This document shows positions 11,998 to 36,304 of a stretch of DNA of 64,000 nucleotides, one piece after another; position 1 is the first letter of the stretch; every line of letters starts with the position of its first letter. The translations under genes were made by a program, and so were the position numbers. The notes beneath the pieces are model-generated. The model was not told the DNA's origin. It saw only the letters and a list, made by a program, of their open reading frames with translations, and did no database searches. The stretch is from Cellulomonas sp. NTE-D12 (GTDB taxonomy: Bacteria > Actinomycetota > Actinomycetes > Actinomycetales > Cellulomonadaceae), in contig NZ_AP026442.1 in the NCBI RefSeq assembly GCF_027923705.1, forward strand, positions 132,853-196,852. The letters are read 5' to 3'.

Positions 11998-12068
11998 GCG
12001 GGTGTAGTTCAATGGTAGAACTTCAGCTTCCCAAGCTGAGAGCGCGGGTTCGATTCCCGTCACCCGCT
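11998..12068 (+). tRNA. tRNA-Gly (anticodon CCC)
   Basis: GCGGGTG-TA-GTTC-AATGGTA-GAAC-T-TCAGC-TTCCCAA-GCTGA-GAGC-GCGGG-TTCGATT-CCCGT-CACCCGC-T folds as a cloverleaf with the anticodon loop TTCCCAA. CCA is not encoded. Confidence 0.85.
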
Positions 12069-12070
12069 CC
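12026..12070. repeat. attL core: 45-bp direct repeat (3' half of tRNA-Gly), identical to 28685-28729
   Basis: GCTTCCCAAGCTGAGAGCGCGGGTTCGATTCCCGTCACCCGCTCC is found identically at both positions by eye. Confidence 0.8.
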
Positions 12071-12172: not shown

Positions 12173-13537
12173 ATGCCTACCCGACACCATCGACGTGTAT
12201 CCGGCACCGTGCGGCGGCTCCCCAGCGGGAGATGGCAGGCCCGGTACACCGGACCGGACGGCGCGCAGCGCGCGGTCGGGGTCTATCCGACGAAGGCGGA
12301 GGCCGACCAGGCGCTCGCCTTCGAGATCTCCGAGATTGCCCGCGGCACCTGGCGGGACCCGCGGCGCGGGGACCAGCCGCTCGCGGACTTCCTGCGGACC
12401 TGGATCGCGACCCGCGCCGATCTGGCCCCGAGCACCCGTGCGCTGTATGAGCGGATGTTCACGCAGTGGATCGATGCGGACGTGCCGCTGGGCGACCTGT
12501 CCCGCAGCGTCTCGCGGCAGACGGTCCGGCTCGGCGAGCGCACCCTGGCGTCGATCGGTCCGGCCGACATCCGGGAGTGGGACGCCGCCGTTCTGGCCGA
12601 GGCGCGACGGCGGGCGGGGGCTCGGTGGACGAAGGCGAGCGTCACGCCGGAGCGGGTCAACAAGGCGATCCGGACGTGGGCTGCCGAGCAGGGCCGGCCC
12701 GTCGCGCCCACCGGCCGGATGTCGGCGTCGCTGCGTGAGGCGTGGCTGGCCGCGACCGGGGGAGAGGTGCCGCTGGACCCGCGTGCCGAGCGGCACAACC
12801 TCGGCCACACCGAGGCGGCGCAGGCCTACCGGTTCCTGCACACCGGGCTGGCCCAGGCGGTGTCCGACGGGCTCATCCTGGCGAACCCGTGCGCGGTCAA
12901 GGGCGCGAGCCAACGCGACTCCCGGCACCGGACCGAGCGGCGGGTGCTCGCCGCCGACGAGCTGTGGGCGCTGGCCGACGCGATGCCCGAGCGGTACCGC
13001 GCCGCGGTGGTCGTGGCGTTCCTGTCCGGGCTGCGCGCCGGGGAGCTCTTCGCGCTGCAGCGCCGGCACGTCGACCTGACCAAGGGGACGCTGCGGGTCG
13101 AGCAGGCGCTCGCGCTGCCGGGGAGCGGATCGGTCTTCTCGACGACGAAGTCGCGCGCCGGCGTGCGGACGGTGGTGCTGCCGTCGGTCGCGGTCGAGGT
13201 GCTGGCGGAGCACATGGCGCTGTTCACGCCGGCGGGACGAGACTCGCTGGTGTTCGGGACCTCGTCCGGGCGGCCGGTCAGCAACGGACATCGCTCGATG
13301 ATGTTCGGACGGGCTCGGAAGACCATCGGTCGCGACGACCTGACATGGCACGACCTCCGGCACTCGGCACTGACGCTCGTCGCCTCAACGGGGGCGACGC
13401 TGCCCGAGCTGATGGAGCGGGCCGGGCACTCGACGCCGCGCGCGGCGCTGCACTACCAGCACGCCGCGGACGACTCGCAGCGGCGGATCGCCGAGCGGCT
13501 CGATGTCCTAATGGCCGTTAAGCAGCCACGTGGCTAG
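12173..13537 (+). CDS. int: tyrosine-type site-specific integrase
   Basis: An AAAGAGAGG RBS precedes the ATG at 12173. The C-terminal catalytic region reads ...RAGELFALQRRHVDL...WHDLRHSALTLVASTGATLPELMERAGHSTPRAALHYQHA (R...HxxR...Y). It lies immediately 3' of tRNA-Gly. Confidence 0.85.
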   Translation: MPTRHHRRVSGTVRRLPSGRWQARYTGPDGAQRAVGVYPTKAEADQALAFEISEIARGTWRDPRRGDQPLADFLRTWIATRADLAPSTRALYERMFTQWIDADVPLGDLSRSVSRQTVRLGERTLASIGPADIREWDAAVLAEARRRAGARWTKASVTPERVNKAIRTWAAEQGRPVAPTGRMSASLREAWLAATGGEVPLDPRAERHNLGHTEAAQAYRFLHTGLAQAVSDGLILANPCAVKGASQRDSRHRTERRVLAADELWALADAMPERYRAAVVVAFLSGLRAGELFALQRRHVDLTKGTLRVEQALALPGSGSVFSTTKSRAGVRTVVLPSVAVEVLAEHMALFTPAGRDSLVFGTSSGRPVSNGHRSMMFGRARKTIGRDDLTWHDLRHSALTLVASTGATLPELMERAGHSTPRAALHYQHAADDSQRRIAERLDVLMAVKQPRG

Positions 13538-15860: not shown

Positions 15861-18371
15861 ATGCAGGGGGCTGCGGAGTTGTTGATCGGCGGGTTCGCCG
15901 TCGTCGCAATGATCGCGATTGTGCGGATTCGCCATCGTGCCGCCGCGAGGCGACTGGAGGAGTTGCGGGTCGCGGCGGCTCCTTCGCTGGACGAGCTCCG
16001 CGGATGGCGAACCTCGGTTGAGACGCGCATCGACGATCTCGTCCACGAGGGTCGCTGGATCTCCCGCGACACATGGACCGACTGGACGAGGTCGGGGCCT
16101 CTCCCGGCGGCGGCGCTCCTCAAACTCGCTGGAGTGCCAGGCGCCGGCGAGGAGGCACGTCAGTCCCTCGCATTCCTCCGCGAAGAACTGGCCTCGCTCG
16201 TAGCGTCGGCGAACCAGCAGGTGCTCCGAAATGAACTCAGGGCCAGACGCGCCCTCTTCGACAGCATCGAGTCGCAGCCCCTGACCGACGAGCAGGCGGC
16301 CGCGGTGGTGACCTTCGACAACCGGGTGCAGGTGATCGCTGCCGCGGGCTCCGGCAAGACGTCGGTGATGGTGGCTCGGGCCGCATACTCGATCCTTCGC
16401 GGCTTCGTGCCTGCCGAGCGGATTCTGCTGCTGGCGTTCAACAAGGACGCCGCGACGGAACTGCAGGAACGGGTGACCACCCGGCTCGCTGCTGCTGGCA
16501 TCGCATCCGACGGATTGCGAGCCGCAACCTTCCACTCCTTCGGCCTCTCGGTGATCGGACAGGCGACTGGGCGGAAGCCGCGCCTGGCCGCCTGGCTGGA
16601 CGGTGGCGGTGACGTACAGATGGTTGGCCGGATCGTCGACGAGCTTCGTGACCGCTCCCCGTACTTCCGGTTCCGCTGGGACCTGTACCGCCTGCTGTTC
16701 GCTCGGATGGCGGACGAGCCGGGCGACGGTGAGCCGGACGCCTACAACTCAGCCAGCAAGGAGACGGGTTACCGCACCTACAACGGTGAGGTCGTCAAGA
16801 GCCAGGGCGAGCGGATGATCGCCGACTTCCTCTTCCTCAACGGCGTGCGCTACGAGTACGAGAAGCCCTACGTCTACGACGTCGCGGATGCGACGCACTC
16901 GCAGTACCGGCCGGACTTCTTCTACCCCGACATCGACGTCTGGCACGAGCACTGGGCGCTCGACCGTCACGGGAAGCCCCCGGAGGAGTTCGTCGGCTAT
17001 GCCGAAGGCATCGAGTGGAAGAAGTCGGTGCACCGCAGCCACGGCACGAGCCTGATCGAGACCACGTGGGCGACGATCCTTGACCAAACCGGCTTCCAGC
17101 CTCTGGCTGATGAGCTGAAGGCCCGCGGCTTGCCGCTGGACTGGAATCCCGACCGTCCTACCCGGGGCGCGGAACCTCTGAAGCACGAGGACCTGGCGCT
17201 GCTGATGCGCACCTTCCTCACTCACGTGAAGTCCAACTCGCTCACCAAGGAGCAACTCGAGGAGCGGCTCCAGGCGAACACGAAGGTCTCGCACTACCGG
17301 GCACAGCTCTTCCTCGGAGTGTTCTGGGAGATCTACGCGCAGTGGCAGGCTCGCCTGGCTGCTGACGACTCGATCGACTTCGAGGACATGCTCGTCCAGG
17401 CTGCCGATCACCTCGAGGCCCGCCGTGTCGACATGGGTTACGACCTCGTTCTCGTCGACGAGTTCCAAGACGCCAGCCGCGCGCGAGCTCGCCTGACCAG
17501 GGCCCTGGTGGACAAGCCGCACCGCTACCTGCTCGCCGTCGGCGACGACTGGCAGTCCATCAACCGCTTCGCCGGCTCCGACCTCTCCCTCATGACCGAC
17601 TTCGCGAACTGGTTCGGCGAGTCGAAGACGCTGCGGTTGCAGACGACCTTCCGCTCCCCTCAGTCGATCTGCGATACAGCCAGTGGTTTTGTCTCGAAGA
17701 ACACGCGGCAGTTCGCCAAGCAGGTCAGGTCGGTCCAGCCCGATTACGGGCCGCCGGTGTCGCTCGTTCGCGTTCCGCGTGCGGAAGCGGTCAGGGGAGC
17801 GGTCGCCGCAACTCTCGACGAGATCTCCCGGGGAGTCCGGGCCGGGAAGGTCCCACCGGGACTGTCGGGAGCGGTGAGAGTCGACATCCTCGGCCGCTAC
17901 CGGTTCGACCGCGACGTCATGCCGTTGCAGTCGTATCCCGGTCTGGCCGTCAGCTTCCGGACGGTCCACGCGTCGAAGGGCCTCGAGGCCGACTACGTGA
18001 TCCTGCCGAACGTGTCAGCGGGGACGTACGGCTTCCCGAGCGAAGTGGTGGACGACCCCGTTCTCTCGCTCGCCATGACCGACGCCGACCCGTACCCCCA
18101 TGCCGAGGAGCGTCGCCTGTTCTACGTCGCGCTCACCCGTGCTCGACGGGCGGTGACGATCATCGGCATCCAAGGCAAGGAGTCGAGCTTCATCGCCGAG
18201 CTGATCGCCGATCACCGCATCGAGCTCTCGCACTTGAGCGCGGTCGAGATGGCGGAAGCGTGCCCGGCATGCGGCAACGGCATCCTCGTCGTCCGACGGC
18301 ATCGGGCGACCGGCCGTCAGTTCCTCGGGTGCAACGCCTTCCCACGGTGTACCTACACGCGCAACCGGTGA
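15861..18371 (+). CDS. membrane-anchored UvrD/Rep-family SF1 helicase with inserted PD-(D/E)xK (DUF559/NERD-like) nuclease-like domain and C-terminal topoisomerase-type Zn ribbon
   Basis: There is an N-terminal hydrophobic helix LLIGGFAVVAMIAIVRI. Walker A is AAAGSGKTSVMVARA. An insert GERMIADFLFLNGVRYEYEKPY...YRPDFFYPDIDVWHEHWA lies between helicase subdomains. The DExx box is LVLVDEFQDAS and motif VI is LFYVALTRARRAVTII. The C-terminal ribbon reads CPACGNGILVVRRHRATGRQFLGCNAFPRCTYT. Confidence 0.7.
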   Translation: MQGAAELLIGGFAVVAMIAIVRIRHRAAARRLEELRVAAAPSLDELRGWRTSVETRIDDLVHEGRWISRDTWTDWTRSGPLPAAALLKLAGVPGAGEEARQSLAFLREELASLVASANQQVLRNELRARRALFDSIESQPLTDEQAAAVVTFDNRVQVIAAAGSGKTSVMVARAAYSILRGFVPAERILLLAFNKDAATELQERVTTRLAAAGIASDGLRAATFHSFGLSVIGQATGRKPRLAAWLDGGGDVQMVGRIVDELRDRSPYFRFRWDLYRLLFARMADEPGDGEPDAYNSASKETGYRTYNGEVVKSQGERMIADFLFLNGVRYEYEKPYVYDVADATHSQYRPDFFYPDIDVWHEHWALDRHGKPPEEFVGYAEGIEWKKSVHRSHGTSLIETTWATILDQTGFQPLADELKARGLPLDWNPDRPTRGAEPLKHEDLALLMRTFLTHVKSNSLTKEQLEERLQANTKVSHYRAQLFLGVFWEIYAQWQARLAADDSIDFEDMLVQAADHLEARRVDMGYDLVLVDEFQDASRARARLTRALVDKPHRYLLAVGDDWQSINRFAGSDLSLMTDFANWFGESKTLRLQTTFRSPQSICDTASGFVSKNTRQFAKQVRSVQPDYGPPVSLVRVPRAEAVRGAVAATLDEISRGVRAGKVPPGLSGAVRVDILGRYRFDRDVMPLQSYPGLAVSFRTVHASKGLEADYVILPNVSAGTYGFPSEVVDDPVLSLAMTDADPYPHAEERRLFYVALTRARRAVTIIGIQGKESSFIAELIADHRIELSHLSAVEMAEACPACGNGILVVRRHRATGRQFLGCNAFPRCTYTRNR

Positions 18372-18377
18372 CCCGTA

Positions 18378-18598
18378 CTCCTTCCCCTCCTCCTTCTCCT
18401 CCTCCTTCCTCCGTCGCCCCCTTCTCCTCCCTCACCCCCTTCTCCTCCCTCACCCCCTTCTCCTCCCTCATCCCCTTCTTCTCCCTCATCCCCTTCTTCT
18501 CCCTCATCCCCTTCTTCTCCCTCATCCCCTTCTTCTCCCTCACCCCTTCTTCTCCCTCACCCCTTCTTCTCCCTCACCCCTTCCCTTACCTCCCATCA
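18378..18598. repeat. polypyrimidine (C/T-rich on + strand) minisatellite, about 10 tandem copies of an 18-bp unit (CCCCTTCTTCTCCCTCAT and variants)
   Basis: Seen directly. The minus frame would read (MREKKG)n, but no credible gene context supports that. It lies between the helicase and DnaB-like genes. Confidence 0.8.
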
Positions 18599-19535: not shown

Positions 19536-20222
19536 TCAGGACCGCGCCTTGAGGGCCTTCCGAGGCTTGACCTGCAGGTCGAGGGACCGGCGAACGTCGC
19601 GCGCGTTGTCGGACTCCGAGAAACGCATCCATGTCGCCACGTCGAGCAGCCGGAGCGTGGTCGGCGCCGGGCCGTCCATCGCGGGCGCCATGCCATCGAT
19701 CGCGGACCGAATCTGCGCGTCTTCGAGTGCGGTCTGAAGCGCGGACCAGGAGCCGGTGCTCCCCAACCCGAGTGCACCGCTGACGACCGAGTCGATGATC
19801 GGCAGCAGGTGGGGGCGCTTCCGGGCCAGCAGCTTGCTGGCTCGGGTACGCCCGATGCCGGGAATTGCCCGCACCCGCAGCCACAGCAGCCCTGCGGCTG
19901 AGTGCTCGCCGAGGACCGCGTCGTAGTTCGCCTTCCACAGCGGCAGGTCTGTCGGCACGCCCGACAGGAGATCGTCGGCGACGCCTCCCGTCACGAGTGC
20001 GCGGACAGCCTCCGGCTTGAAGCGGACGTCAAGCAGGGAGGCTGCCAACAGGTCGTCAGTCGTGAAGTGATCCGGCGGGTTATCCCCGAGGTCGTCGAAC
20101 AGGGATCCAGCAAACGGCTTGTCGCGGTAGTAGTGGTTGACCAGTTCCGCGCCGCGTTGCTCGACGACGTCGAGAATCGCGCTGCGGATGACGTCCGTCG
20201 ACGCTGATGGCTGACCAGGCAT
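19536..20222 (-). CDS. hypothetical protein with helix-hairpin-helix-like motif (IPGIGRTRASKLLARKRPHLLPIID)
   Basis: ATG at 20222 (MPGQPSASTDVIRSAILDVVEQRGAELVNHYYRDKPFAGSLFDD...), 228 aa. It is divergent from the relaxase gene across the iteron region. Confidence 0.5.
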   Translation of the reverse strand: MPGQPSASTDVIRSAILDVVEQRGAELVNHYYRDKPFAGSLFDDLGDNPPDHFTTDDLLAASLLDVRFKPEAVRALVTGGVADDLLSGVPTDLPLWKANYDAVLGEHSAAGLLWLRVRAIPGIGRTRASKLLARKRPHLLPIIDSVVSGALGLGSTGSWSALQTALEDAQIRSAIDGMAPAMDGPAPTTLRLLDVATWMRFSESDNARDVRRSLDLQVKPRKALKARS

Positions 20223-20301
20223 GGGATCTCCAGATCTGCTCGGGCTTGGGCCGACCGTAGCGCTCCCGACCTGCGGCGATGCGGGAGCAACGCGGTGTGG
20301 A

Positions 20302-20612
20302 GGACTCGCCTCGTCGCATGTTGTAGCCGCGCTGCACACGTCCTCACGTGGGGACCTCACGCGCCTGTCACCGGCTGACCGATAGACGACCCGATAGACG
20401 GCCATGTCACCGAGATGTCACCGGCCGGATGTCACCGGTTTGTCTATCGGTCTGTCTATCGCTGCTGAGGATCGTCGCGCGCGTGCCACGACCTCCGCTG
20501 CCTTCGTCGTCCGCGACGCCCTCCGGTCATCCGCTCGCCGTCGCGTGTTGCTCGTCGTCCCGCACTCCCGCTTCTAGGGGGGCCACACCGTGGCGCCCCT
20601 CGAGAGGGGGTG
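20302..20612. repeat. about 310-bp relaxase leader region with iterons (2x CGATAGAC direct, 2x GTCTATCG inverted, 3-4x ATGTCACCG); candidate oriT/regulatory region; copy A
   Basis: It is about 90% identical to 34557-34858 (copy B). Internal short repeats were seen directly. Confidence 0.6.
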
Positions 20613-20619
20613 CGTCGCG

Positions 20620-23532
20620 ATGCTGGCGATCGCCAAGCTGACGGTCGGCGACGGGTACGAGTACCTCTCGCGCCAGGTTGCGACCGGTGACATCGAGATG
20701 TCCCGCAGCCAGGCGCTGGCCGCCTACTACGCCGCGTCGGGCACGGAACAGGGCGTGTGGCTCGGCCGCGGCCTGGAGGGTCTGGCCGACGTGCGTCGCG
20801 GCGACCCGGTCACCCGAGAGGCGATGACCCGCCTGTTCCGCGACGGTCGCGACCCGTCGACCGGGGACGCGCTCGGCATCCCGTTCGACGCGCTGCACGT
20901 GGGCCGGGGCAAGCCCGTCGCCGGCTTCGACCTCGTCTTCACCGTGCCCAAGTCCGCCTCCGTGCTGTGGGCGCTCGGAGACGCGGCCACCCGCGAGGCT
21001 GTCGTCGGAGCGCACCGCAGCGCGCGGGCCCAGGCGCTGACGTTCCTCGAGGACAAGGCGATCCGGACCCGCGTCGGGGCCGGCGGGTCGCGCCAGGTGC
21101 GGACCCTCGGGGTGGTGGCGGCGGGGTTCGAGCACGTCGACTCGCGGCTGAACGACCCGAACCTGCACACGCACCTGGTGATCGCCAACAAGGTGCAGAC
21201 CCCGGATGGGACGTGGCGGGCGCTGGACGGGCGGACGCTGCTGCAGGCCACGGTCTCCGCCAGCGAGCTGTACGACGGGTTCCTTGCCGACGAGCTGAGC
21301 CGGCGGCTGGGGGTGAGGTGGGAGCTGCGCGACCGCGGTCCGCGGCGAAACCCGACGTTGGCGCTGCAGGGCCTGTCCGACGAGGTGCTCGACCTGTTCT
21401 CCCGCCGCGGCGCGCAGGTGGACGCCGCCCAGCAGGCGTGGGAGACGACGTTCGTCCTGAAGCATGGCCGCACGCCGGACCCGGTCGAGGTCACCAAGGC
21501 CCGCGGGCTGCTGACCCGCTCGACCCGCCCGGCGAAGGTGCTGCGGCCGCTCGGAGAGCTGTTCGAGGAGTGGGCCAACCGCGCTCGGGCGCTGACCGGG
21601 CTGGAGCCGCGGGACCTGGCCGCGCGGGCACTGGTCGGGGACTACGGGCGGAGCCTGCACGTGCACGACGTGGCCGGGCCGATGCGCGCCGCTCTGGTGG
21701 ACCAGGTGCTTGCGGACGTGCAGGGTCGTGCCGCCGTCTTCAGCACCTGGACGCTGACCGCGGCCGCGGCGCGCGCCACGCGGGTGCTGCCGATGGCCTC
21801 GCCCGACGAGCGGATCGCGCTGGTCGGAACCCTGGTCACCGCGGCGGCGGGGTGCTGCGTGCGGCTGGACGACGGGCAGGTCCGCCGGATAGGGGAGGAG
21901 AAGTTCACCACCCCGGCGATCCTCGCGGCCGAGCAGGAGCTGTTGAACCGGGCTATGGCGCCGACGGGCCTCGGAGTTCCGCATCCGGTCCAGATCGCGC
22001 GGCAGCTGGCCCGCTACCCCGGCTTGAGCGAGGACCAGCGCCGGGCGGCGGCCGCGGTGCTCGGGTCCGGGCAGGTGATCGACACCGTGGTCGGCCCGGC
22101 CGGGTCGGGCAAGACGACCACGCTGCGGGCGGTGATCGGCGCCTGGCAGTCGGTCTACGGGTCGTCGGTGATCGCCCTGGCGCCGTCGGCGACGGCAGCG
22201 CACGTGCTCGGCGAGGCGCTCGGGATCCGCGCCGAGACCACGGCCAAGTGGCTGTTCGAGCAGCCCCGGAACGACGAACGAGCGGCCGAGGCGCGCGAGC
22301 TGGCGGCCCGGTTGCCGCTGACGCCGACTGAGGCGAGCGACCAGCTCGAGGCGCGGATCGTCGACCTGATGTCGCAGGTGCAGGCATGGCGGCTGTCCCG
22401 CGGGCAGCTCGTCGTGCTCGACGAGGCGTCCCTGGCCGACACGCCCACGCTGGCCACACTCGCCGGCCAGGCGCAGGACGCCGGCGCCAAGATCGTGCTG
22501 GTCGGCGACCCGGAGCAACGGCCCGCCGTCGGCCCCGGCGGCGGGTTCGGCATGCTCGTGCACCGGCACGCCACCGCGCAGCTGACCGCGCTGCACCGGT
22601 TCACCCAGCCGTGGGAGGCCGCTGCCGTCCTGCAGATCCGCGCCGGCGACGCCCGCGCCATCGCGGTCTACCGGTCGCAGGGCCGGATCACCGTGGGGGC
22701 GCCCGACGAGGTCCTGGACACCGCCGTGCTCGCCGCCGGGCAGGACGCGGTCGCGGGGAAGGTGGTGCTGCTGCAGGCCGCCGACACCCGCACCGTCCAC
22801 GAGCTCAACGCCCGCGCCCACGCCGCGGCGGTCCTGGACGGCCGCGCCCGCCGCGACGGCGGTGTCCCACTGGCCGACCAGACCGTGGCCACCGTGGGGG
22901 ACCGGGTGGTGACCCGGCACAACGACCGCCGGCTGCGCACCACCGACGGGTTCGTCCGCAACGGCGCGCTGTGGGACGTGACCGCCACCGCGCCCGACGG
23001 GTCGCTGACCGTCCGACCCGCCGACCATCGGGACCAGCCAGGTGCCGACGTCCGGCTGCCGGCCGGCTACGTCCGCGAGCACGTCGAGCTCGGCTACGCC
23101 ACCACCACCGCCCGCTCCCAGGGGCGCACCGTCGACACCACCCACACCGTCGTCAGCGCCGCGATGGCCCGCGAAGACCTCTACGTGGCGGTCACCCGCG
23201 GCCGCGACCACAACCAGCTCTACGTCCCAACCGGTCCGTTCGACGCCGACTGCCCACCCGGCCCGTCCCGACGTCAGGAGGCCGACGAGACGCTGCGCAC
23301 CGTCCTGGCCACCAACCGCATCCCGGCCACCGCGACCGAGACGTGGGCCGCGAACCACCCGGGGGAACCGGTCCCGGTGCCATCGCGGGTGCCGACATGG
23401 CGACCCGAGCCCGTCGTCGTCGGCGGTGCCGAGCGTCGCCCGGTCCAGCCGCGGCGCGCGGCACCGCCCGCCGCCCTGCCACCGCCGCCGGTCCGGCCTG
23501 CCCACGCCCTCGACCGCTCACTCGGCCGCTGA
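20620..23532 (+). CDS. traA: MobF/TrwC-family conjugative relaxase-helicase (TraA-like)
   Basis: A GAGAGGGGG RBS precedes the ATG at 20620. The N-terminal relaxase domain reads MLAIAKLTVGDGYEYLSRQVATGD...AAYYAASGTEQGVWLG...HTHLVIANK. The C-terminal RecD-like helicase carries Walker A VVGPAGSGKTTTLRAV. The protein is about 970 aa. Confidence 0.85.
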   Translation: MLAIAKLTVGDGYEYLSRQVATGDIEMSRSQALAAYYAASGTEQGVWLGRGLEGLADVRRGDPVTREAMTRLFRDGRDPSTGDALGIPFDALHVGRGKPVAGFDLVFTVPKSASVLWALGDAATREAVVGAHRSARAQALTFLEDKAIRTRVGAGGSRQVRTLGVVAAGFEHVDSRLNDPNLHTHLVIANKVQTPDGTWRALDGRTLLQATVSASELYDGFLADELSRRLGVRWELRDRGPRRNPTLALQGLSDEVLDLFSRRGAQVDAAQQAWETTFVLKHGRTPDPVEVTKARGLLTRSTRPAKVLRPLGELFEEWANRARALTGLEPRDLAARALVGDYGRSLHVHDVAGPMRAALVDQVLADVQGRAAVFSTWTLTAAAARATRVLPMASPDERIALVGTLVTAAAGCCVRLDDGQVRRIGEEKFTTPAILAAEQELLNRAMAPTGLGVPHPVQIARQLARYPGLSEDQRRAAAAVLGSGQVIDTVVGPAGSGKTTTLRAVIGAWQSVYGSSVIALAPSATAAHVLGEALGIRAETTAKWLFEQPRNDERAAEARELAARLPLTPTEASDQLEARIVDLMSQVQAWRLSRGQLVVLDEASLADTPTLATLAGQAQDAGAKIVLVGDPEQRPAVGPGGGFGMLVHRHATAQLTALHRFTQPWEAAAVLQIRAGDARAIAVYRSQGRITVGAPDEVLDTAVLAAGQDAVAGKVVLLQAADTRTVHELNARAHAAAVLDGRARRDGGVPLADQTVATVGDRVVTRHNDRRLRTTDGFVRNGALWDVTATAPDGSLTVRPADHRDQPGADVRLPAGYVREHVELGYATTTARSQGRTVDTTHTVVSAAMAREDLYVAVTRGRDHNQLYVPTGPFDADCPPGPSRRQEADETLRTVLATNRIPATATETWAANHPGEPVPVPSRVPTWRPEPVVVGGAERRPVQPRRAAPPAALPPPPVRPAHALDRSLGR

Positions 23533-23593: not shown

Positions 23594-23812
23594 ATGACCC
23601 TCACTACCACCAACCCGTCCCGCGCCCCGTACCTGACGGTCGCCCAGGCTGCCGACGAGCTCGCCGTCACCGACCGCTTCATCCGCAAGCTCATCGCCGA
23701 GGGCCAGCTCCGCGCCGTCAAGGTCGGCGACCGGGTCCTCCGCATCCGCCGCACGGACCTAGAGGACTTCCTGCGACCGGCGCGCGTCGTCCCGCACCTC
23801 GGGCGGCGGTGA
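23594..23812 (+). CDS. xis: excisionase/MerR-type HTH DNA-binding protein
   Basis: An AAGGAG RBS precedes the ATG at 23594. The 72 aa protein reads ...YLTVAQAADELAVTDRFIRKLIAEGQLRAVKVGDRVLRIRRTDLEDFL, matching the excisionase-family helix-turn-helix. Confidence 0.65.
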   Translation: MTLTTTNPSRAPYLTVAQAADELAVTDRFIRKLIAEGQLRAVKVGDRVLRIRRTDLEDFLRPARVVPHLGRR

Positions 23813-26085: not shown

Positions 26086-27327
26086 ATGGCTACCTACCTC
26101 CCGAGGCTGGTGGACGACCAGCTCGCCCGAGGCCTTCGCTCCGCGGGTGCCGTCGTGCTCGAAGGTCCGAAGGCGTGCGGCAAGACGACCACGGCGCGGC
26201 AGCAGGCCGCCAGCCTCGTGCGCCTCGATGCGTCTCCGCAGCTTCGTGCAGCCGGCCAGGTCGACCCCGGCCTGCTGCTCGCGGGGGAGACGCCCCGGCT
26301 GATCGACGAGTGGCAGCTGGTTCCTGAGGTGTGGAACGCCGTGCGTCACTCGGTCGACGACCGACAAGCCAGCGGACAGTTCATCCTCACGGGGTCCGCC
26401 ACCCCTACGGACGACGTCACGCGGCACACCGGCACGGGCCGGTTCTCCCGGGTGCGGATGTTGCCGATGTCGCTGTACGAGCAGCAACGGTCGAATGGCC
26501 AGGTGTCGCTGCGGGCGCTTCTCGACGGCGAGCCCGCCACCAGTGCGGGCAGCGACGTCGACCTGCTTGGCGTGGCGCAGCTGCTGTGCCGAGGCGGTTG
26601 GCCGGGGAACCTCGACCGGGACCTGGGGGATGCGCTCAACGCCAATCGCGACTACCTGGCCACGATCGCCGGCGCCGACATCGTCACGCTCGACGGCGTC
26701 CGCCGGGACCCCCGCAAGGTCACCGCGCTGATCTTCGCGCTGGCGCGCAACGCCGGAACCTACGTGACCAACCGGACGCTGCAGGCGGACATCACCGGCG
26801 ACGGGCAGACCCTTGCGCCCCGGACCTTGGACAACTACCTGGACGCCCTGGCGCGACTGTGGCTGTACGTCGAGCAGCCCGCCTGGGGGCAGCACATGCG
26901 GTCGTCCGCGCAGGTGCGGCGAGCGCCCAAGCGCCACCTCGTCGACCCCTCCCTCGCCGCGGCGGCGATGGGCGCCACACCTGAGGCATTGGTGGCCGAC
27001 CCCGAGACGTTCGGGCAGCTGTTCGAGAGCCTTGTGTTCCGAGACCTGTCGGTCTACGCCCAGGCCGTCGACGCTCACGTCTTCGCCTACCAGGACACCA
27101 CCGCCGAGTTCGATGCGGTCGTCGTCCGCGACGATCGCTGGATAGGGGTCGAGGTCAAGCTCTCCGGCCGCCCGGAGATCATCGACGGGGCTGCATCGAG
27201 CATGCTTCGGCTCGCCGAGCGGATGCGAACTCCGCCATCCGCGCTCGCCGTCGTGACGGCCACCGGGCCTTCCTACCGCCGAGCGGATGGCGTCGTCGTC
27301 ACCTCGATCCTCAACCTTGGTCCCTGA
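26086..27327 (+). CDS. AAA+ ATPase (AAA_14) with DUF4143 C-terminal domain
   Basis: VVLEGPKACGKTTTARQ is a Walker A and LIDEWQLVPEVWNAVR is a Walker B-like motif. It is paralogous to the minus-strand protein at 35033-36304. Confidence 0.75.
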   Translation: MATYLPRLVDDQLARGLRSAGAVVLEGPKACGKTTTARQQAASLVRLDASPQLRAAGQVDPGLLLAGETPRLIDEWQLVPEVWNAVRHSVDDRQASGQFILTGSATPTDDVTRHTGTGRFSRVRMLPMSLYEQQRSNGQVSLRALLDGEPATSAGSDVDLLGVAQLLCRGGWPGNLDRDLGDALNANRDYLATIAGADIVTLDGVRRDPRKVTALIFALARNAGTYVTNRTLQADITGDGQTLAPRTLDNYLDALARLWLYVEQPAWGQHMRSSAQVRRAPKRHLVDPSLAAAAMGATPEALVADPETFGQLFESLVFRDLSVYAQAVDAHVFAYQDTTAEFDAVVVRDDRWIGVEVKLSGRPEIIDGAASSMLRLAERMRTPPSALAVVTATGPSYRRADGVVVTSILNLGP

Positions 27328-28684: not shown

Positions 28685-28729
28685 GCTTCCCAAGCTGAGA
28701 GCGCGGGTTCGATTCCCGTCACCCGCTCC
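28685..28729. repeat. attR core: 45-bp direct repeat of tRNA-Gly 3' half
   Basis: It is identical to 12026-12070. Confidence 0.8.
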
Positions 28730-33421: not shown

Positions 33422-34489
33422 GTGGCGCCGCGCACGGAAGCTGGACCGCAACCTGGTGAAGAGCCGGCGCTGCCTGTCGTCTGGCGCGTCGGCCGCCCCG
33501 CGCTGCTCGTCGCCCGGGTCGGCACCGGCCTCAGTCTCGCCGCGATTGCGGCGGTGACCGCCTGGGTGCTCTGGTGGCCGGACGCGGACCGGACAGCAGC
33601 CGCGCTCGCCGCGGCCGTCGCCCTGGTCTTCGTCGTGCTCCTCTGGCGAATGGGACTGCACCCCTCGCTCGAGGCGACCGCTGCCGGACTCACCGTCCGC
33701 AATCCACTTCAGACCGTCGAGATCCCGTGGGCGGAGGTCCGCGAGACCATCCCCGGGTACGACGGCATCAGGATCACGCGCTACGGCCGTCCCTCCGTCA
33801 CCGTCTGGGCTGTGCAGAAGGCGAACATCAGCACGTGGTCGCGAGCGCGAACGCGGGCCGATGTGGTGGCGGCGACGATTGACCACCTGGCGCGGGTCCA
33901 TGGCGCCCACGACCACGCGCACGCGTCGACGATGCGATCCATTTCGAACGAGCCCGAGCCACGCGACGCCGCCGCGCTGCCTCTGCCCTTCCCGTGGACG
34001 ATGTCTCGCGTCGAAGCGTTCGTCGTCGGCGAGCTGCGGCACTCGTCGTCACCGCTGCTGAGCGGCGCGGTGGCTCTCCTGTTCGCTGCACTCGCGCTGG
34101 GGGTCCTCGGATTCCTCGGCGACGACCTGTGGAACAACTACGTGCTGCAGCAGCGCGGAATCGTCGTCCATGCCACGGTGCTGGCCGTCCCCGGCCAGGT
34201 GAAGGTCACCTGGCCGGCTATCGCACCGCGCGCCGTCTTCGTCGACCCCGGCCACCCCTCTGGCACCTATGCCGTCGGCGACGTCGTCGAGGTGCAGTCG
34301 GATCCGCGAGAGCCGACCCTTGCCCGGCTGGTCGGCGTGAAGCCAGATGCCGGGGACCGGATCAGGTCTGGAGCGGTCGGCGTCGTGGGGTTGTTCCTGG
34401 CGGGCGCTTACGCCAAATGGTCACGCTGGTTGCTGTTCGCCCAGCGGCACGCTGCCACCACCGGCTCGGGGCGGCACCGCAAGCCCTGA
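33422..34489 (+). CDS. membrane protein: bacterial PH (bPH_2) domain fused to DUF3592-like domain
   Basis: 2 TM + ...GLTVRNPLQTVEIPWAEVRETIPGYDGIRITRYGRPSVTVWAV. A second TM pair then flanks ...VFVDPGHPSGTYAVGDVVEVQSDPREP.... Confidence 0.5.
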   Translation: MAPRTEAGPQPGEEPALPVVWRVGRPALLVARVGTGLSLAAIAAVTAWVLWWPDADRTAAALAAAVALVFVVLLWRMGLHPSLEATAAGLTVRNPLQTVEIPWAEVRETIPGYDGIRITRYGRPSVTVWAVQKANISTWSRARTRADVVAATIDHLARVHGAHDHAHASTMRSISNEPEPRDAAALPLPFPWTMSRVEAFVVGELRHSSSPLLSGAVALLFAALALGVLGFLGDDLWNNYVLQQRGIVVHATVLAVPGQVKVTWPAIAPRAVFVDPGHPSGTYAVGDVVEVQSDPREPTLARLVGVKPDAGDRIRSGAVGVVGLFLAGAYAKWSRWLLFAQRHAATTGSGRHRKP

Positions 34490-34556: not shown

Positions 34557-34858
34557 ACCGATCCGTCGCATGTTGCAGCCTCGGTGCACACGTCTCCGCG
34601 TGGGGACCTCACGCGCATGTCACCGGCTGACCGATAGCCAACCCGAGAGACGGCCATGTCACCGGCCGGATGTCACCGGTTTGTCTATCGGTCTGTCTAT
34701 CGCTGCTGAGGATCGTCGCGCGCGTGGCACGACCTTGGCTGCCTTCGTCCTCCGCGACGACCTTCGGTCATCCGCTCGCCGTCGCGTGTTGCTCGTCGTC
34801 CCGCGCTCCCGCTTGTAGGGGGACCACACCGTGGCGCCCCTCGGGAGGGGGGGTTCTT
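34557..34858. repeat. orphan degenerate copy (B) of the relaxase leader/iteron region, including the first about 30 bp of a relaxase ORF
   Basis: It is about 90% identical to 20302-20612. The iterons are partly mutated (CGATAGCC, CGAGAGAC), and homology ends right after GTGGCGCCCCTCGGGAGGGGG. Confidence 0.6.
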
Positions 34859-35032
34859 CGCCAGCTACACCGCCATCCACCTAGGCAACGCCTCAGACCG
34901 GTCAGCCGGCTCGCTCGTTCTCGCGCTCCTCACGCTGGTCCTCGTGGTGGCCGGTCTGTCGAGCCTGATGGCCGCCGTCGCGACGGCGCGCGCGGCCTCC
35001 GCTCGGTTCACCTCGGGCTGACCGGGGACGTC

Positions 35033-36304
35033 TCACGCCGCGATGAGTCCCAAGGGGACCACGCCGATCCCGTCGGGTCGGCGGTAGGCGCTCGGTCCGG
35101 TGTTGACGATGATCGCGTCGAGCAGCGCGTCGCCCAGATGGCCGGCGAGCCAGTGCAGGTGAGTGGTGTCGCGGTCGTCGACCGTGGTGGCGAGCTTCAC
35201 CTCGATGGCGAGGACCTTGCCGTCGTCGCGGACGACGACGAGGTCGATCTCGTGGTCGCCGTTTCGGGTTCGCAGATGGCCGACGTTCGCTTCCGCGGCC
35301 TGAGCCGGGACTCGGATGCAGAGAGCGGCGAGCGACTGGAACAGGTGCCCGAGCATCGTGCCCGCCTGCGGGCCGATCGGTGTCCCCTCGCCATCGAGGA
35401 GAGCGTCGCTGGTGAGGCCGAGGAGCCGAGCGGCCAGAGCCGGGTCTGCGAGGTGGTGCTGCGGTGCTTGACCAAGACGCGCCAGGGGATTGCCGAGCGG
35501 CGCCCATGCAGGTACCGGATCGAGCAGCCACAGCTGAGTGAGCACGTCGCGATACGCGATGCTCGTGCTGCGAGCGGGCTTGTCGTCCTGTCCGGGGGTC
35601 GCGGCGTCCAGCAGGCTCGAGTAGCTGGCGGTCGACGACGTGGCCGCGGCGTAGGCGCGGAGCCAGGCCAGCATGGAGTCCGGCTTGCGCACTGCCAAGC
35701 CCTGCTCGGGGACGTCACGATCGACCGCGTTGCGCAGGTAGGAGTCGAGCTGGAACTTCAAGGCGCGTGGGGTCAGGCCCCGCAGACCGGGAAAGCCGGA
35801 CGCGAGGATCTCCTCCGTGTAGTCGGCCAGGCGCAGTGGGCACGAGCCGTCCAGTGGGCCCCGCGCTCCCGACAGCAGGCCACGCAGGCTCACCGTCGGT
35901 TCGCTGACGCCTCGCTCGGAGAGCGTCATCGGCCGCATCCTCAGGCGGCCGATGCGGCCGGCGCCGGAGTGAGCGGTGGCGCCGGGTGCCGGTGCCGCGC
36001 TTCCGACCAGCAGGTACTGGCCCCCGCTGCGGTCCTCGTCGACGGCCCTGCGTACGACGTCCCACACCTCGGGGACCTTCTGCCATTCGTCGATCAGCAG
36101 CGGGCGCGCTCTGGTCAGGACCAGCTCGGGGTCGGCTTGGATCGATTCCCGGTTAGCACGCGAGTCCAGTCGGAGCAGCCCGTGGGCCCGCTGCTCCGCC
36201 GTGGTCGTCTTGCCGACCGCCTTCGGGCCGTCGATGGCGATGGCGGGGACCTGCGGGAACAGCTCGTCCAGCTCATCATCGACGATCCGCCGGACGTAGG
36301 GCAT
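35033..36304 (-). CDS. AAA+ ATPase (AAA_14) with DUF4143 domain
   Basis: IAIDGPKAVGKTTTAEQ...LLIDEWQKVPEVWDVVR. It is a paralogue of 26086-27327. Confidence 0.75.
   Translation of the reverse strand: MPYVRRIVDDELDELFPQVPAIAIDGPKAVGKTTTAEQRAHGLLRLDSRANRESIQADPELVLTRARPLLIDEWQKVPEVWDVVRRAVDEDRSGGQYLLVGSAAPAPGATAHSGAGRIGRLRMRPMTLSERGVSEPTVSLRGLLSGARGPLDGSCPLRLADYTEEILASGFPGLRGLTPRALKFQLDSYLRNAVDRDVPEQGLAVRKPDSMLAWLRAYAAATSSTASYSSLLDAATPGQDDKPARSTSIAYRDVLTQLWLLDPVPAWAPLGNPLARLGQAPQHHLADPALAARLLGLTSDALLDGEGTPIGPQAGTMLGHLFQSLAALCIRVPAQAAEANVGHLRTRNGDHEIDLVVVRDDGKVLAIEVKLATTVDDRDTTHLHWLAGHLGDALLDAIIVNTGPSAYRRPDGIGVVPLGLIAA

What the first reader, a model, noticed from the sequence alone, without database searches (positions are those of the whole stretch)
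20302..20612. Relaxase leader with iterons (candidate oriT), duplicated as a decayed orphan copy at 34557-34858
Upstream of traA lie 2x CGATAGAC (direct), 2x GTCTATCG (inverted) and 3-4x ATGTCACCG. This organisation is typical of relaxase and accessory-protein binding sites at oriT. A second copy, about 90% identical, lies 14 kb away outside attR. It includes the first codons of a relaxase ORF before the homology stops and its iterons are partly mutated. This implies an older related element inserted nearby and was largely deleted. The two copies are also substrates for homologous recombination that would delete about 14 kb.
Basis: seen in the sequence. Interest (0 to 1): 0.55.

Follow-up and report, generated by a model that had tools for sequence, protein, structure and literature searches.

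The report
Relaxase control/oriT region, with relic copy
A 300-base non-coding stretch that always sits in front of the DNA-transfer enzyme gene of a small mobile island in Cellulomonas occurs a second time 14 kb away, as the leftover of a second, related island that lost that gene. This is real and tidy, but it is an ordinary feature of mobile elements.

Summary
Window 20312-20611 and 34564-34851 are direct repeats, 92.7% identical apart from one 11-bp gap. The octamers GTCTATCG/CGATAGAC and the TGTCACCG repeats occur essentially only at these two places. One detail is wrong: homology stops 8-9 nt before the relaxase ATG (20620), so copy B holds no real relaxase codons.

Copy A lies inside an intact 16.7-kb integrative mobilizable element. 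This element sits in tRNA-Gly, has 45-bp att repeats at 12026-12070 and 28685-28729, encodes integrase, MobF relaxase and an HTH_17 excisionase-like protein, and shows no recognisable mating-pore genes.

The same module, with the same left edge, precedes every relaxase fetched at 68% identity or more. A pattern built on its most conserved block hit only 4 metagenome contigs, so it is not a generic repeat.

The module is composite: a 45-bp distal box that looks like a promoter or operator, a long inverted repeat around the iterons that is the best oriT candidate (its core resembles the R388 nick site TTGTCT|AT), and a leader with an anti-Shine-Dalgarno helix. Wobble pairs fall almost only on the + strand, so part of it may act as an mRNA leader.

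Copy B is a relic of a second related element: in another Cellulomonas, a homologue of its left-hand neighbour gene sits directly upstream of relaxase-excisionase-integrase. oriT function itself is untested.

The parts
11998..12070 (+). tRNA-Gly(CCC). Its last 45 nt (12026-12070) are attL of the intact element.
   Evidence: ARAGORN; perfect 45-bp direct repeat with 28685-28729
12174..13537 (+). Tyrosine integrase with an Lsr2-type DNA-binding domain.
   Evidence: Pfam Phage_integrase 5.7e-17 and Lsr2_DNA-bd 1.8e-7. The start codon was read from the sequence.
19536..20222 (-). DUF6308 gene, divergent from the relaxase gene. It is the left neighbour of module A.
   Evidence: Pfam DUF6308 3.3e-36. 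ATG at 20222 with GGAG upstream.
20312..20611 (+). Module A: the conserved non-coding relaxase-upstream module (candidate promoter/operator + oriT + leader).
   Evidence: Duplicated at 34564-34851. Conserved upstream of all relaxases fetched at 68% identity or more, with the same left edge.
20313..20357 (+). Distal 45-bp unit: GTCGCATGTT-N10-TGCACAC-GT-N7-TGGGGACC.
   Evidence: Invariant blocks in alignment A4. nhmmer finds the same unit at -77 of relaxases only 42-44% identical, and upstream of a second operon there.
20366..20438 (+). Four TGTCACCG repeats (20366, 20405, 20416, 20430). The last three lie in the loop between the octamer arms.
   Evidence: Present only in winA, winB, L001, L003 and the partial L097/L098 copies; in loci whose relaxase is seen, that relaxase is at least 79% identical.
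20380..20399 (+). Left arm of the long inverted repeat: 2 x CGATAGAC (20380-87, 20392-99).
   Evidence: Pairing with the right arm is kept in 87% of cells across 9 sequences.
20442..20461 (+). Right arm: 2 x GTCTATCG (20442-49, 20454-61). GGTTTGTCT|AT matches the R388 nick region GTATTGTCT|AT at 9 of 11 positions.
   Evidence: R388 oligonucleotide sequence from PMC4176350. YTGTCTATCG is conserved in 7 of 9 module copies.
20540..20586 (+). Proximal, degenerate copy of the 45-bp unit (GTCGCGTGTT...GCACTCCC...TAGGGGGGCC). GCACTCCC (20562-69) is complementary to the ribosome-binding stretch.
   Evidence: The anti-SD helix is kept in 96.8% of cells.
20576..20613 (+). GGGG..CCCC hairpin (20576-20600), then the Shine-Dalgarno stretch GAGAGGGGGTGC (20602-20613). 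Its 3' part GGGGGTGC (20606-20613) pairs with the anti-SD stretch.
20620..23532 (+). MobF (TrwC-type) relaxase-helicase, 970 aa.
   Evidence: Pfam TrwC 2.2e-80 and AAA_30 5e-53. 100% identical to the Cellulomonas sp. NTE-D12 MobF relaxase.
23594..23812 (+). HTH_17 excisionase-like gene. It follows the relaxase gene in most of the relatives examined.
   Evidence: Pfam HTH_17 8e-12. Same gene order in L001, L003, L004, L086, L088, L089 and L095.
28685..28729 (+). attR of the intact element.
33422..34489 (+). bPH_6/DUF3592 membrane-protein gene, the left neighbour of module B and cargo of the relic element.
   Evidence: Pfam bPH_6. Homologue P0125 sits directly upstream of relaxase-HTH_17-integrase in L095. 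The same gene-module junction occurs in L097/L098.
34564..34851 (+). Module B: orphan copy with 3 TGTCACCG repeats. Both left octamers are mutated (34632-39, 34644-51). The right arm (34683-702), both 45-bp units and the hairpin are intact.
34854..35022 (+). 3' remnant (55 codons) of a truncated membrane-protein ORF that abuts module B. It marks the deletion junction.
   Evidence: Translation. No start codon behind the retained SD. No relative in any locus.

Best explanation
The 300-bp segment is the conserved non-coding backbone module that precedes the MobF (TrwC-type) relaxase gene in a family of small integrative mobilizable elements of Cellulomonas and its relatives.

It has three parts.
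1. A distal 45-bp box (GTCGCRTGTT-N10-TGCACAC...TGG). This most likely acts as a promoter or operator.
2. A long inverted repeat (2 x CGATAGAC ... 2 x GTCTATCG) enclosing three of the 3-4 TGTCACCG repeats. This is the best candidate for the site where the relaxase, and perhaps the HTH_17 protein, assemble and nick, i.e. oriT.
3. A proximal leader in which GCACTCCC can pair with the ribosome-binding stretch around a GGGG/CCCC hairpin. This would throttle relaxase translation.

Copy A serves the intact 16.7-kb element in tRNA-Gly. Copy B, together with the bPH_6 gene on its left, is what remains of a second, related element. That element's relaxase, excisionase and integrase were removed by a deletion running from just upstream of the start codon into a neighbouring membrane-protein gene.

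Shown here: the duplication, the conservation, the module boundaries, the synteny and the helix conservation. Inferred: promoter activity, translational control, nicking, and any action of relaxase A on copy B in trans.

The confidence of 0.6 is for the whole statement. I put about 0.85 on 'conserved relaxase cis-module, with copy B a relic of a second element' and about 0.55 on 'the module contains the oriT'.
For: - The duplication and motif enrichment are real.
- The intact element is bounded by 45-bp att repeats at tRNA-Gly. It carries integrase, relaxase and HTH_17 but no T4SS or coupling-protein domain.
- The module is found upstream of all fetched relaxases of 68-83% identity, with homology starting at the same CCGTCGC in all, although the upstream genes are unrelated.
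- All the motifs are absent upstream of relaxases at 54% identity or less, apart from the shared 45-bp unit/box, so the module co-varies with its relaxase.
- Only 4 metagenome contigs hold the block-I pattern, and there is no plasmid match.
- Three helices are kept in 90% of cells against 46-58% in slid controls, with 6 pairs changed on both sides.
- TTGTCT|AT matches the R388 nick core.
- For the relic: a bPH_6 homologue lies directly upstream of relaxase-HTH_17-integrase in L095. L097/L098 carry the same bPH_6-74 bp-module junction. A truncated ORF abuts the right end of B.
Against: - There is no experimental or direct computational proof of nicking.
- The 45-bp unit also precedes a second, unrelated operon in distant elements. 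This fits a promoter/operator better than a nick site.
- G.T wobbles (25 cells, 12 pairs) lie almost only on the + strand, against 2 A.C cells. This points to an RNA (leader) role for the inverted repeat itself.
- The RNAalifold covariation term is near zero.
- The tested helices were taken from the same alignment used to score them, which biases the test, and there are only 9 sequences.
- The resemblance to the R388 nick was noticed post hoc, and the spacing to the nearest short inverted repeat differs (6 nt against 8-9 nt).
- No att sites bound the relic.
- The consensus scan found no sigma-70-type promoter.
Confidence: 0.6

Rival explanations
1. Expression control only. The module is a promoter/operator plus a long structured 5' UTR of the relaxase mRNA. 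The inverted repeat is an RNA stem whose loop carries protein-binding repeats, and an anti-SD helix follows it. oriT lies elsewhere in the element.
For: - The 45-bp unit is repeated upstream of a second operon in L009, L093 and L094.
- A GC[AG]CACCT box lies 22-65 nt upstream of the start in about 26 of 88 MobF relaxase loci. It is often complementary to the SD, in 18 of 85 minimum-free-energy folds.
- The wobble asymmetry on the + strand is 25 to 2.
- The module ends exactly at the SD.
- The + strand folds better than shuffles, z = -3.6.
Against: - No Rfam family matches.
- The covariation energy is about 0.
- The - strand folds nearly as well, z = -3.1.
- No transcription start or promoter could be identified.
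- From general knowledge of MOBF systems, relaxase-upstream intergenic regions are where most oriTs lie. The method of the preprint 10.64898/2026.01.13.699239 relies on this.
- The two roles commonly overlap, so this rival excludes oriT only weakly.
Confidence: 0.3
2. Copy B arose by duplication or transposition of module A within this genome, not from a separate element.
For: Among the full-length copies compared, B is closer to A (92.7%) than to any other, L001 being at about 83%.
Against: - The bPH_6-74 bp-module junction of B exists in other samples (L097, L098), with B-type substitutions and, in L097, the same 11-bp gap.
- A bPH_6 homologue is relaxase-linked in L095.
- The left edge of B is the family-wide backbone/cargo boundary.
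- The module has no terminal repeats or target duplication.
Confidence: 0.07
3. A generic interspersed repeat (MITE/REP-like) that happens to lie near the relaxase gene.
For: It occurs twice in 64 kb and contains inverted repeats.
Against: - There are only two copies in the window.
- Only 4 contigs in the metagenome collection hold its most conserved block, and the two long enough to test (L093, L094) have it next to a relaxase gene.
- Wherever the downstream gene is seen, the module sits at the same distance from a relaxase start.
Confidence: 0.02
4. An iteron-type origin of vegetative replication for the excised element.
For: Direct repeats spaced 11-14 bp apart. A DnaB_C-like ATPase and a UvrD-like helicase are encoded nearby.
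Against: - No Rep initiator domain was found.
- The module has no AT-rich unwinding stretch.
- The repeats are missing from the L004-type half of the clade although the module is kept.
Confidence: 0.03

Closest known systems
oriT of MOBF plasmids (R388 TrwC; F TraI)
   Same: - It is a non-coding region directly upstream of the gene for a TrwC-family relaxase-helicase.
- It has inverted repeats.
- Its core GGTTTGTCT|AT matches R388 G17-T27 (GTATTGTCT|AT) at 9 of 11 positions, including GTCT and a purine after the nick (PMC4176350).
- It co-varies with the relaxase clade.
   Different: - There are four copies of the nick-like octamer, two on each strand, forming a long inverted repeat.
- The short inverted repeat ends 6 nt before the putative nick, not 8-9 nt.
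- G18 replaces the conserved T18.
- No RHH accessory gene (TrwA/TraY type) lies nearby; an HTH_17 gene follows the relaxase gene instead.
- The host is an integrative element in a 72% G+C actinobacterium.
- No nicking data exist.
Integrative mobilizable elements with their own relaxase (iMOB) and relaxase-less relatives that keep only an oriT (iOriT; CIME-type decayed elements)
   Same: - Element 1 has integrase, att sites in a tRNA gene and a relaxase, but no mating-pore genes.
- Copy B with its cargo is a relaxase-less remnant next to a related relaxase-bearing element.
- This is the situation described for tandem or decayed elements in PMC5704250 and for iOriTs derived from iMOBs in 10.64898/2026.01.13.699239.
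   Different: - The 2017 review knew of no IME with a MobF relaxase.
- The relic has no recognisable att sites or integrase.
- The relic carries derived mutations in both left octamers, so it may be dead rather than a working hitcher.
SD-sequestering mRNA leaders (translational attenuators)
   Same: A C-rich stretch upstream can pair with the purine-rich ribosome-binding site. This pairing is kept across the clade, and a related box recurs in distant relaxase loci.
   Different: No ligand, protein or temperature trigger is known. There is no Rfam family and no mapped transcript.

Membership tests
MOBF-type oriT | A cis-acting site physically linked to, and co-varying with, a TrwC/TraI-family relaxase gene | tested here: met
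   The module precedes every relaxase fetched at 68% identity or more, and module identity tracks relaxase identity. Its specific motifs are absent upstream of relaxases at 54% identity or less.
MOBF-type oriT | [quoted passage not shown] | tested here: inconclusive
   GGTTTGTCT|AT matches R388 at 9 of 11 positions, and ACCGG/CCGGT and the octamer inverted repeats are present. But the spacing is 6 nt rather than 8-9 nt, G18 replaces T18, and two other GTGT-type candidates exist in the 45-bp unit.
MOBF-type oriT | Strand- and site-specific nicking by the cognate relaxase, and mobilization of a plasmid carrying the site | not testable with these tools
   This needs a cleavage assay and a mating assay.
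Integrative mobilizable element (iMOB) | A site-specific integrase with flanking att repeats, its own relaxase, and no mating-pair-formation or coupling genes | tested here: met
   attL 12026-12070 and attR 28685-28729 are a perfect 45-bp repeat at tRNA-Gly. Integrase, TrwC relaxase and HTH_17 are present. No T4SS, VirD4 or FtsK-type Pfam domain is found between the att sites. Excision and transfer were not tested.
Relaxase-less oriT island (iOriT) / decayed cis-mobilizable element | An oriT related to that of a co-resident relaxase-bearing element, no relaxase of its own, and element boundaries (att) | tested here: inconclusive
   The module copy is related (92.7%) and no relaxase follows it. 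No att repeat was found, with up to 3 mismatches and in a sensitive short-word search. Both left octamers are mutated relative to L097.
Known cis-regulatory RNA families (Rfam 15) | A match to a curated covariance model | tested here: not met
   No match at E<=1 in 19800-21000 on either strand.
Iteron-type replication origin | Iterons next to a Rep initiator gene and an AT-rich unwinding element | tested here: not met
   No Rep domain. The region is 67-69% G+C with no AT-rich stretch.

The most novel reading that the evidence does not exclude
The module is, at least in part, an undescribed structured mRNA leader family for actinobacterial MobF relaxases. A dedicated 45-bp promoter/operator box, shared by two operons of these elements, drives a roughly 260-nt 5' UTR. 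In that UTR, the octamer stem with its repeat-bearing loop, together with an anti-SD helix, gate relaxase translation. The same sequence serves as oriT at the DNA level. In copy B, the two octamer mutations were selected to stop the resident relaxase from nicking the chromosome at an orphan site.
Probability: 0.2. Interest if true: 0.55.

Novelty: new member of a known kind. Interest (0 to 1): 0.33.

Why it matters
Origins of transfer of integrative elements are mostly unknown, and I found none described for actinobacterial MobF elements in the papers searched. This window offers a compact, well-bounded 300-bp candidate. It comes with a natural 'mutant' copy in the same genome and about eight divergent relatives, which together form a ready-made design for mobilization, nick-mapping and leader-reporter experiments.

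It also documents a MobF-type mobilizable island, a class that the 2017 IME review listed as unknown. Finally, it shows how such an island decays into a relaxase-less remnant next to a living relative. The practical consequences are modest: possible 14-kb deletions, and possible trans-mobilization of chromosomal DNA if copy B still works.

Tried and rejected
- Rfam scan of 19800-21000 at E<=1: nothing.
- Sigma-70 promoter and terminator scan of 20000-20800: nothing.
- blastn of the intergenic region against 72,556 plasmids: no match.
- Search for a third att copy, to define the relic as a tandem insertion at tRNA-Gly: none with up to 3 mismatches, and none in a word-size-7 search.
- Reading the 45-bp unit as a sigma-70, SigF or ECF promoter by eye: spacings and hexamers do not fit, so I abandoned this.
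- My first, by-eye polarisation suggested a 3:1 excess of B-specific changes. The scripted count gives 9 against 5 with 7 ambiguous (p=0.42), so I dropped the 'faster decay' claim.
- Hypothesis that the 55-codon remnant right of B is the C-terminus of the bPH_6 gene: rejected, because homologues of that gene are full length at 341-396 aa and the remnant matches nothing.
- Hypothesis that the DUF4143 ATPase right of B is a close paralogue from the same backbone: only 37% aa identity, so it is uninformative.
- Literature searches for an experimentally mapped actinobacterial MobF oriT: nothing usable in the held library.
- Single-sequence folding does not separate the strands (z = -3.6 and -3.1).

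Full report
SOURCE AND SETTING

The relaxase encoded at 20620-23532 is 100% identical to the MobF relaxase of Cellulomonas sp. NTE-D12, found on a 3.68-Mb contig. The window is 72% G+C.

A tRNA-Gly(CCC) gene lies at 11998-12070. Its last 45 nt are repeated perfectly at 28685-28729. Between these att repeats, the Pfam scans identify:
- a tyrosine integrase with an Lsr2-type DNA-binding domain (12174-13537);
- an HNH_2 protein;
- a UvrD-like helicase with a zinc ribbon;
- a DnaB_C-like ATPase;
- a DUF6308 gene (19536-20222, - strand);
- a TrwC/AAA_30 relaxase-helicase (20620-23532);
- an HTH_17 excisionase-like gene (23594-23812);
- an HTH_3 + nucleotidyltransferase gene;
- a DUF4143/AAA_14 ATPase.

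No type IV secretion, coupling-protein or FtsK/TraB-type domain was found. This is therefore a 16.7-kb integrative mobilizable element with its own relaxase. G+C drops from about 75% to 65-70% between roughly 13 kb and 36-38 kb. The stretch beyond attR also looks foreign.

THE OBSERVATION

The two copies are real. Window 20312-20611 aligns with 34564-34851 in direct orientation.
- A scripted count gives 21 substitutions and one 11-bp gap in 300 columns. Identity is 92.7% excluding the gap, and the longest identical run is 62 bp.
- GTCTATCG occurs 6 times in 64 kb (0.8 expected) and TGTCACCGG 7 times (1.1 expected). All lie at these two loci except one TGTCACCGG on the - strand inside traA.

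The layout of copy A, from left to right, is:
- one TGTCACCGG (20366);
- CGATAGAC twice (20380, 20392);
- TGTCACCG three times (20405, 20416, 20430), 11 and 14 bp apart;
- GTCTATCG twice (20442, 20454).

This forms a 20-nt-armed inverted repeat with three of the repeats in its loop. Copy B lacks one loop repeat. Both its left octamers are mutated (CGATAGCC, CGAGAGAC), while its right arm is intact.

Homology stops at about 20611, 8-9 nt before the ATG at 20620. That ATG gives the 970-aa annotated protein and the MLAIAKL N-terminus shared by relatives. Copy B therefore ends at the ribosome-binding stretch and contains no relaxase codons.

RELATIVES

I fetched contigs for relaxases that are 83, 79 and 67-69% identical (L001-L004, L085-L090).
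- All carry the same module directly upstream of the relaxase gene (alignments A2 and A4).
- In every case similarity begins at the same CCGTCGC(A/G)TGTT, although the genes to the left are unrelated. These are DUF6308, an HTH_34 gene, what look like chromosomal genes, or defence-type cargo such as TIR, SLFN, PIN, HEPN and Fic.
- The left edge of the A/B duplication is therefore not a local rearrangement scar. It is the general boundary between conserved backbone and variable cargo in this element family.
- To the right, most relatives continue with relaxase, HTH_17 and an integrase. No mating-pore genes lie within 10 kb.

A scan of species-representative genomes returned 80 more relaxase loci, nearly all at 33-54% identity. 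Their upstream regions lack the octamers, the TGTCACCG repeats and CTGAGGA. The module is thus specific to, and co-varies with, one relaxase clade.

A pattern built on the most conserved block (GTCGCRTGTT-N10-TGCACAC-N-T-N7-TGG) matches all nine known copies. It found only four contigs in the metagenome collection. Two of these (L093, L094) are long enough to show a relaxase gene next to the match; in L092 the match lies about 200 bp from a short relaxase-like fragment, and L091 is too short to say.

ANATOMY AND WHAT EACH PART SUGGESTS

(a) Distal 45-bp unit (20313-20357)
- An HMM of this unit finds it at -77 from the start of relaxases only 42-44% identical (L009, L093, L094).
- In those same loci it also occurs a second time, in the opposite orientation, about 130 nt upstream of an unrelated operon. 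That operon encodes proteins of 141 and 464 aa of unknown function.
- The same box in front of two transcription units is what a promoter or operator does, not what a nick site does. I could not fit it to a sigma-70, SigF or ECF consensus, and the consensus scan found no promoter.

(b) Proximal, degenerate copy of the unit (20540-20586)
- This copy sits at the position the unit has in the 42% clade.
- Its GCAC(T/A)CC(C/T) box is complementary to the ribosome-binding stretch GGGGGTGC (20606-13), around a GGGG/CCCC hairpin.
- A related box, GC(A/G)CACCT, lies 22-65 nt upstream of the start in about 26 of 88 MobF relaxase loci from many Micrococcales and Propionibacteriales.
- That box is often complementary to the SD/start region, for example GCACACCTC...GAGGTGTGC in L038. 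It pairs that way in 18 of 85 minimum-free-energy folds.
- This points to translational occlusion of the relaxase start as a family trait.

(c) Central inverted repeat
- The + strand reads GGTTTGTCT ATCG. The R388 nick region is GTATTGTCT|ATAGC, taken from the oligonucleotide R(25+18) in PMC4176350.
- That paper also states that GTGT/GTCT before the nick, T23, and a purine after the nick are typical of MOBF.
- The match is 9 of 11 positions, and YTGTCTATCG is kept in 7 of 9 module copies.
- This is the best nick candidate. However, I noticed it post hoc. T18 is G here, and the nearest short inverted repeat (ACCGG/CCGGT) ends 6 nt, not 8-9 nt, before the putative nick.
- The 45-bp unit also contains two GTGT-type candidates: GTCGCGTGT|T, and GGTGT|GG in relatives. 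The latter resembles F's GGGGTGT|GG.

DNA SITE OR RNA LEADER?

I counted three helices across the nine sequences: the octamer arms, the anti-SD helix and the inner hairpin.
- They form standard pairs in 90% of cells, against 46-58% when the partner is slid by 1-3 columns.
- Six pairs changed on both sides, against 1-2 in the slid controls. No shuffle reached the observed covariation score.
- The caveats are that the helices came from RNAalifold on the same alignment, the sample is small, and RNAalifold's own covariation term is about zero.
- The non-Watson-Crick cells are strongly asymmetric. There are 25 G.T cells (12 pairs) on the + strand against 2 A.C cells. The folding strand is therefore the + strand. 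This is either the relaxase mRNA or, if the + strand is the transferred strand, single-stranded DNA.
- Folding of the single sequence does not separate the strands (z = -3.6 and -3.1).
- No Rfam family matches.

My reading is that the module is composite, with expression control at both ends and a possible relaxosome site in the middle. From general knowledge, these roles commonly overlap in relaxase operons. I put oriT content at about 0.55, and 'control region only' at about 0.3.

ORIGIN OF COPY B

The gene left of B (33422-34489; bPH_6, named DUF3592 by NCBI for a homologue) is full length when compared with its homologues.
- In Cellulomonas sp. McL0617 a 51%-identical homologue sits directly upstream of a TrwC relaxase, an HTH_17 gene and an integrase (L095). 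The 471-bp spacer there also contains GTCGCGTGTT-type boxes.
- In two unrelated sequencing runs, near-identical (98% aa, L097) and 85%-identical (L098) versions of the gene are followed by the same 74-bp flank and a B-type module. B therefore belongs to its own element lineage with bPH_6 as left-hand cargo.
- To its right, B abuts the last 55 codons of a membrane-protein ORF with no start codon behind the retained SD. This is a deletion junction.
However, I found no third att site.
- In most relatives the integrase lies on the side of the module away from the tRNA gene here. The relic therefore need not have used the tRNA-Gly site.

On 'decay':
- L097 shares the 11-bp gap. The loss of one repeat is thus a lineage trait, not decay in this genome.
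- L097 has both left octamers intact. The two octamer mutations are the only changes specific to this genome's copy B within the 165 nt that can be compared. Two hits in 16 of 165 nt has a chance of roughly 0.01, but this rests on two events only.
- Polarising all A/B differences with L001 and L003 gives 9 B-specific, 5 A-specific and 7 ambiguous changes (p=0.42). There is no significant rate excess.

CONSEQUENCES

The two direct copies share a 62-bp identical run. Homologous recombination could therefore delete 14.25 kb, taking out the relaxase, attR and the relic's cargo. This is an inference.

Published work on R388 reports that TrwC can integrate DNA into a nic-site-containing molecule (abstract of PMC4176350). 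That TrwC-type relaxases also recombine two oriT copies is my own recollection. Relaxase-mediated recombination, or trans-nicking at B, is therefore conceivable. If the octamers matter, B may already be inactive.

COMPARISON WITH KNOWN SYSTEMS AND NOVELTY
- By position, repeats, nick-like core and co-variation with the relaxase, the module works like a MOBF oriT region. Membership cannot be established without nicking or mobilization data, and the nick-architecture test is inconclusive.
- Element 1 meets the sequence definition of an IME with its own relaxase. The 2017 IME review stated that no known canonical IME encoded a MobF relaxase (PMC5704250).
- A 2026 preprint infers oriT regions from the first intergenic region upstream of relaxase genes. 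It describes relaxase-less 'iOriT' islands, some recently derived from relaxase-bearing ones (10.64898/2026.01.13.699239). Copy B with its cargo fits that picture, as a probably defunct case.
- I rate the finding as a new member of a known kind, of moderate-to-low interest.
- The more novel possibility is an undescribed leader RNA and promoter box family for actinobacterial MobF relaxases. This is not excluded, but it rests on thin comparative evidence.

Noticed in passing
window 18361-18584: About 12 tandem copies of an 18-nt (9+9) pure-pyrimidine unit, TCCTCCCTCAYCCCCTTC, begin at the stop codon of the UvrD-like helicase gene. This forms a long polypurine/polypyrimidine tract inside the mobile element. 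Its function is unknown.
   Followed up: no
L009 3049-3096 (-), L093 9317-9364 (+), L094 9594-9641 (+): The 45-bp unit found upstream of the relaxase gene also lies about 130 nt upstream of a second operon. That operon encodes proteins of 141 aa (MGYTWSKGADAVLEHTAVDWDGVWS...) and 464 aa with no Pfam match, in elements whose relaxases are only 42-44% identical to the window's. It looks like a shared promoter/operator of a small regulon.
   Followed up: partly
upstream regions of about 26 of 88 relaxase loci (e.g. L006, L025, L036, L038, L042); window 20562-20569: A GC(A/G)CACCT box lies 22-65 nt upstream of the start of MobF relaxase genes across many actinobacterial genera. It is often exactly complementary to the Shine-Dalgarno/start region, e.g. 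GCACACCTC...GAGGTGTGC in L038. This suggests a family-wide SD-sequestering leader.
   Followed up: partly
window 12174-13537; L003 1-1063: The element's tyrosine integrase carries an Lsr2-type DNA-binding domain in its N-terminal half. The integrase of the 79%-relaxase relative L003 has it too.
   Followed up: no
L003, L004, L086, L088, L089, L094 (genes flanking the conserved module-relaxase-HTH_17 backbone): The variable genes flanking the conserved backbone are mostly defence-type. Left of the module: TIR, SLFN/AlbA, PIN-VapB, HEPN, Fic and Gp49/HTH. On the other side of the backbone or further off: AbiEii, an OLD-family nuclease, HEPN and GmrSD. This fits reports that defence genes gather next to oriTs.
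   Followed up: no
window 26086-27327 (+) and 35033-36304 (-): There are two DUF4143/AAA_14 ATPase genes, one inside the intact element and one just right of the relic copy. They share 37% aa identity, and 70-75% nt identity over about 190 nt, in inverted orientation.
   Followed up: partly
window 34632-34651 versus L097: Relative to the nearly identical module in another sample (L097), the only two changes specific to this genome's copy B fall in the two CGATAGAC octamers. This could be chance, or selection against a nickable orphan site.
   Followed up: partly
window 20684-20692: One further copy of the iteron (CCGGTGACA on the + strand) lies inside relaxase codons 22-24 (TGD). It is shared with L001 but not L003, and is probably incidental to coding.
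   Followed up: partly
L001 2854-3533: In the 83%-identical relative, what look like chromosomal genes (sigma-70, anti-sigma zf-HC2, NTP_transf_9) reach to within about 95 bp of the module's left edge. There the module sits at the very end of the element.
   Followed up: no
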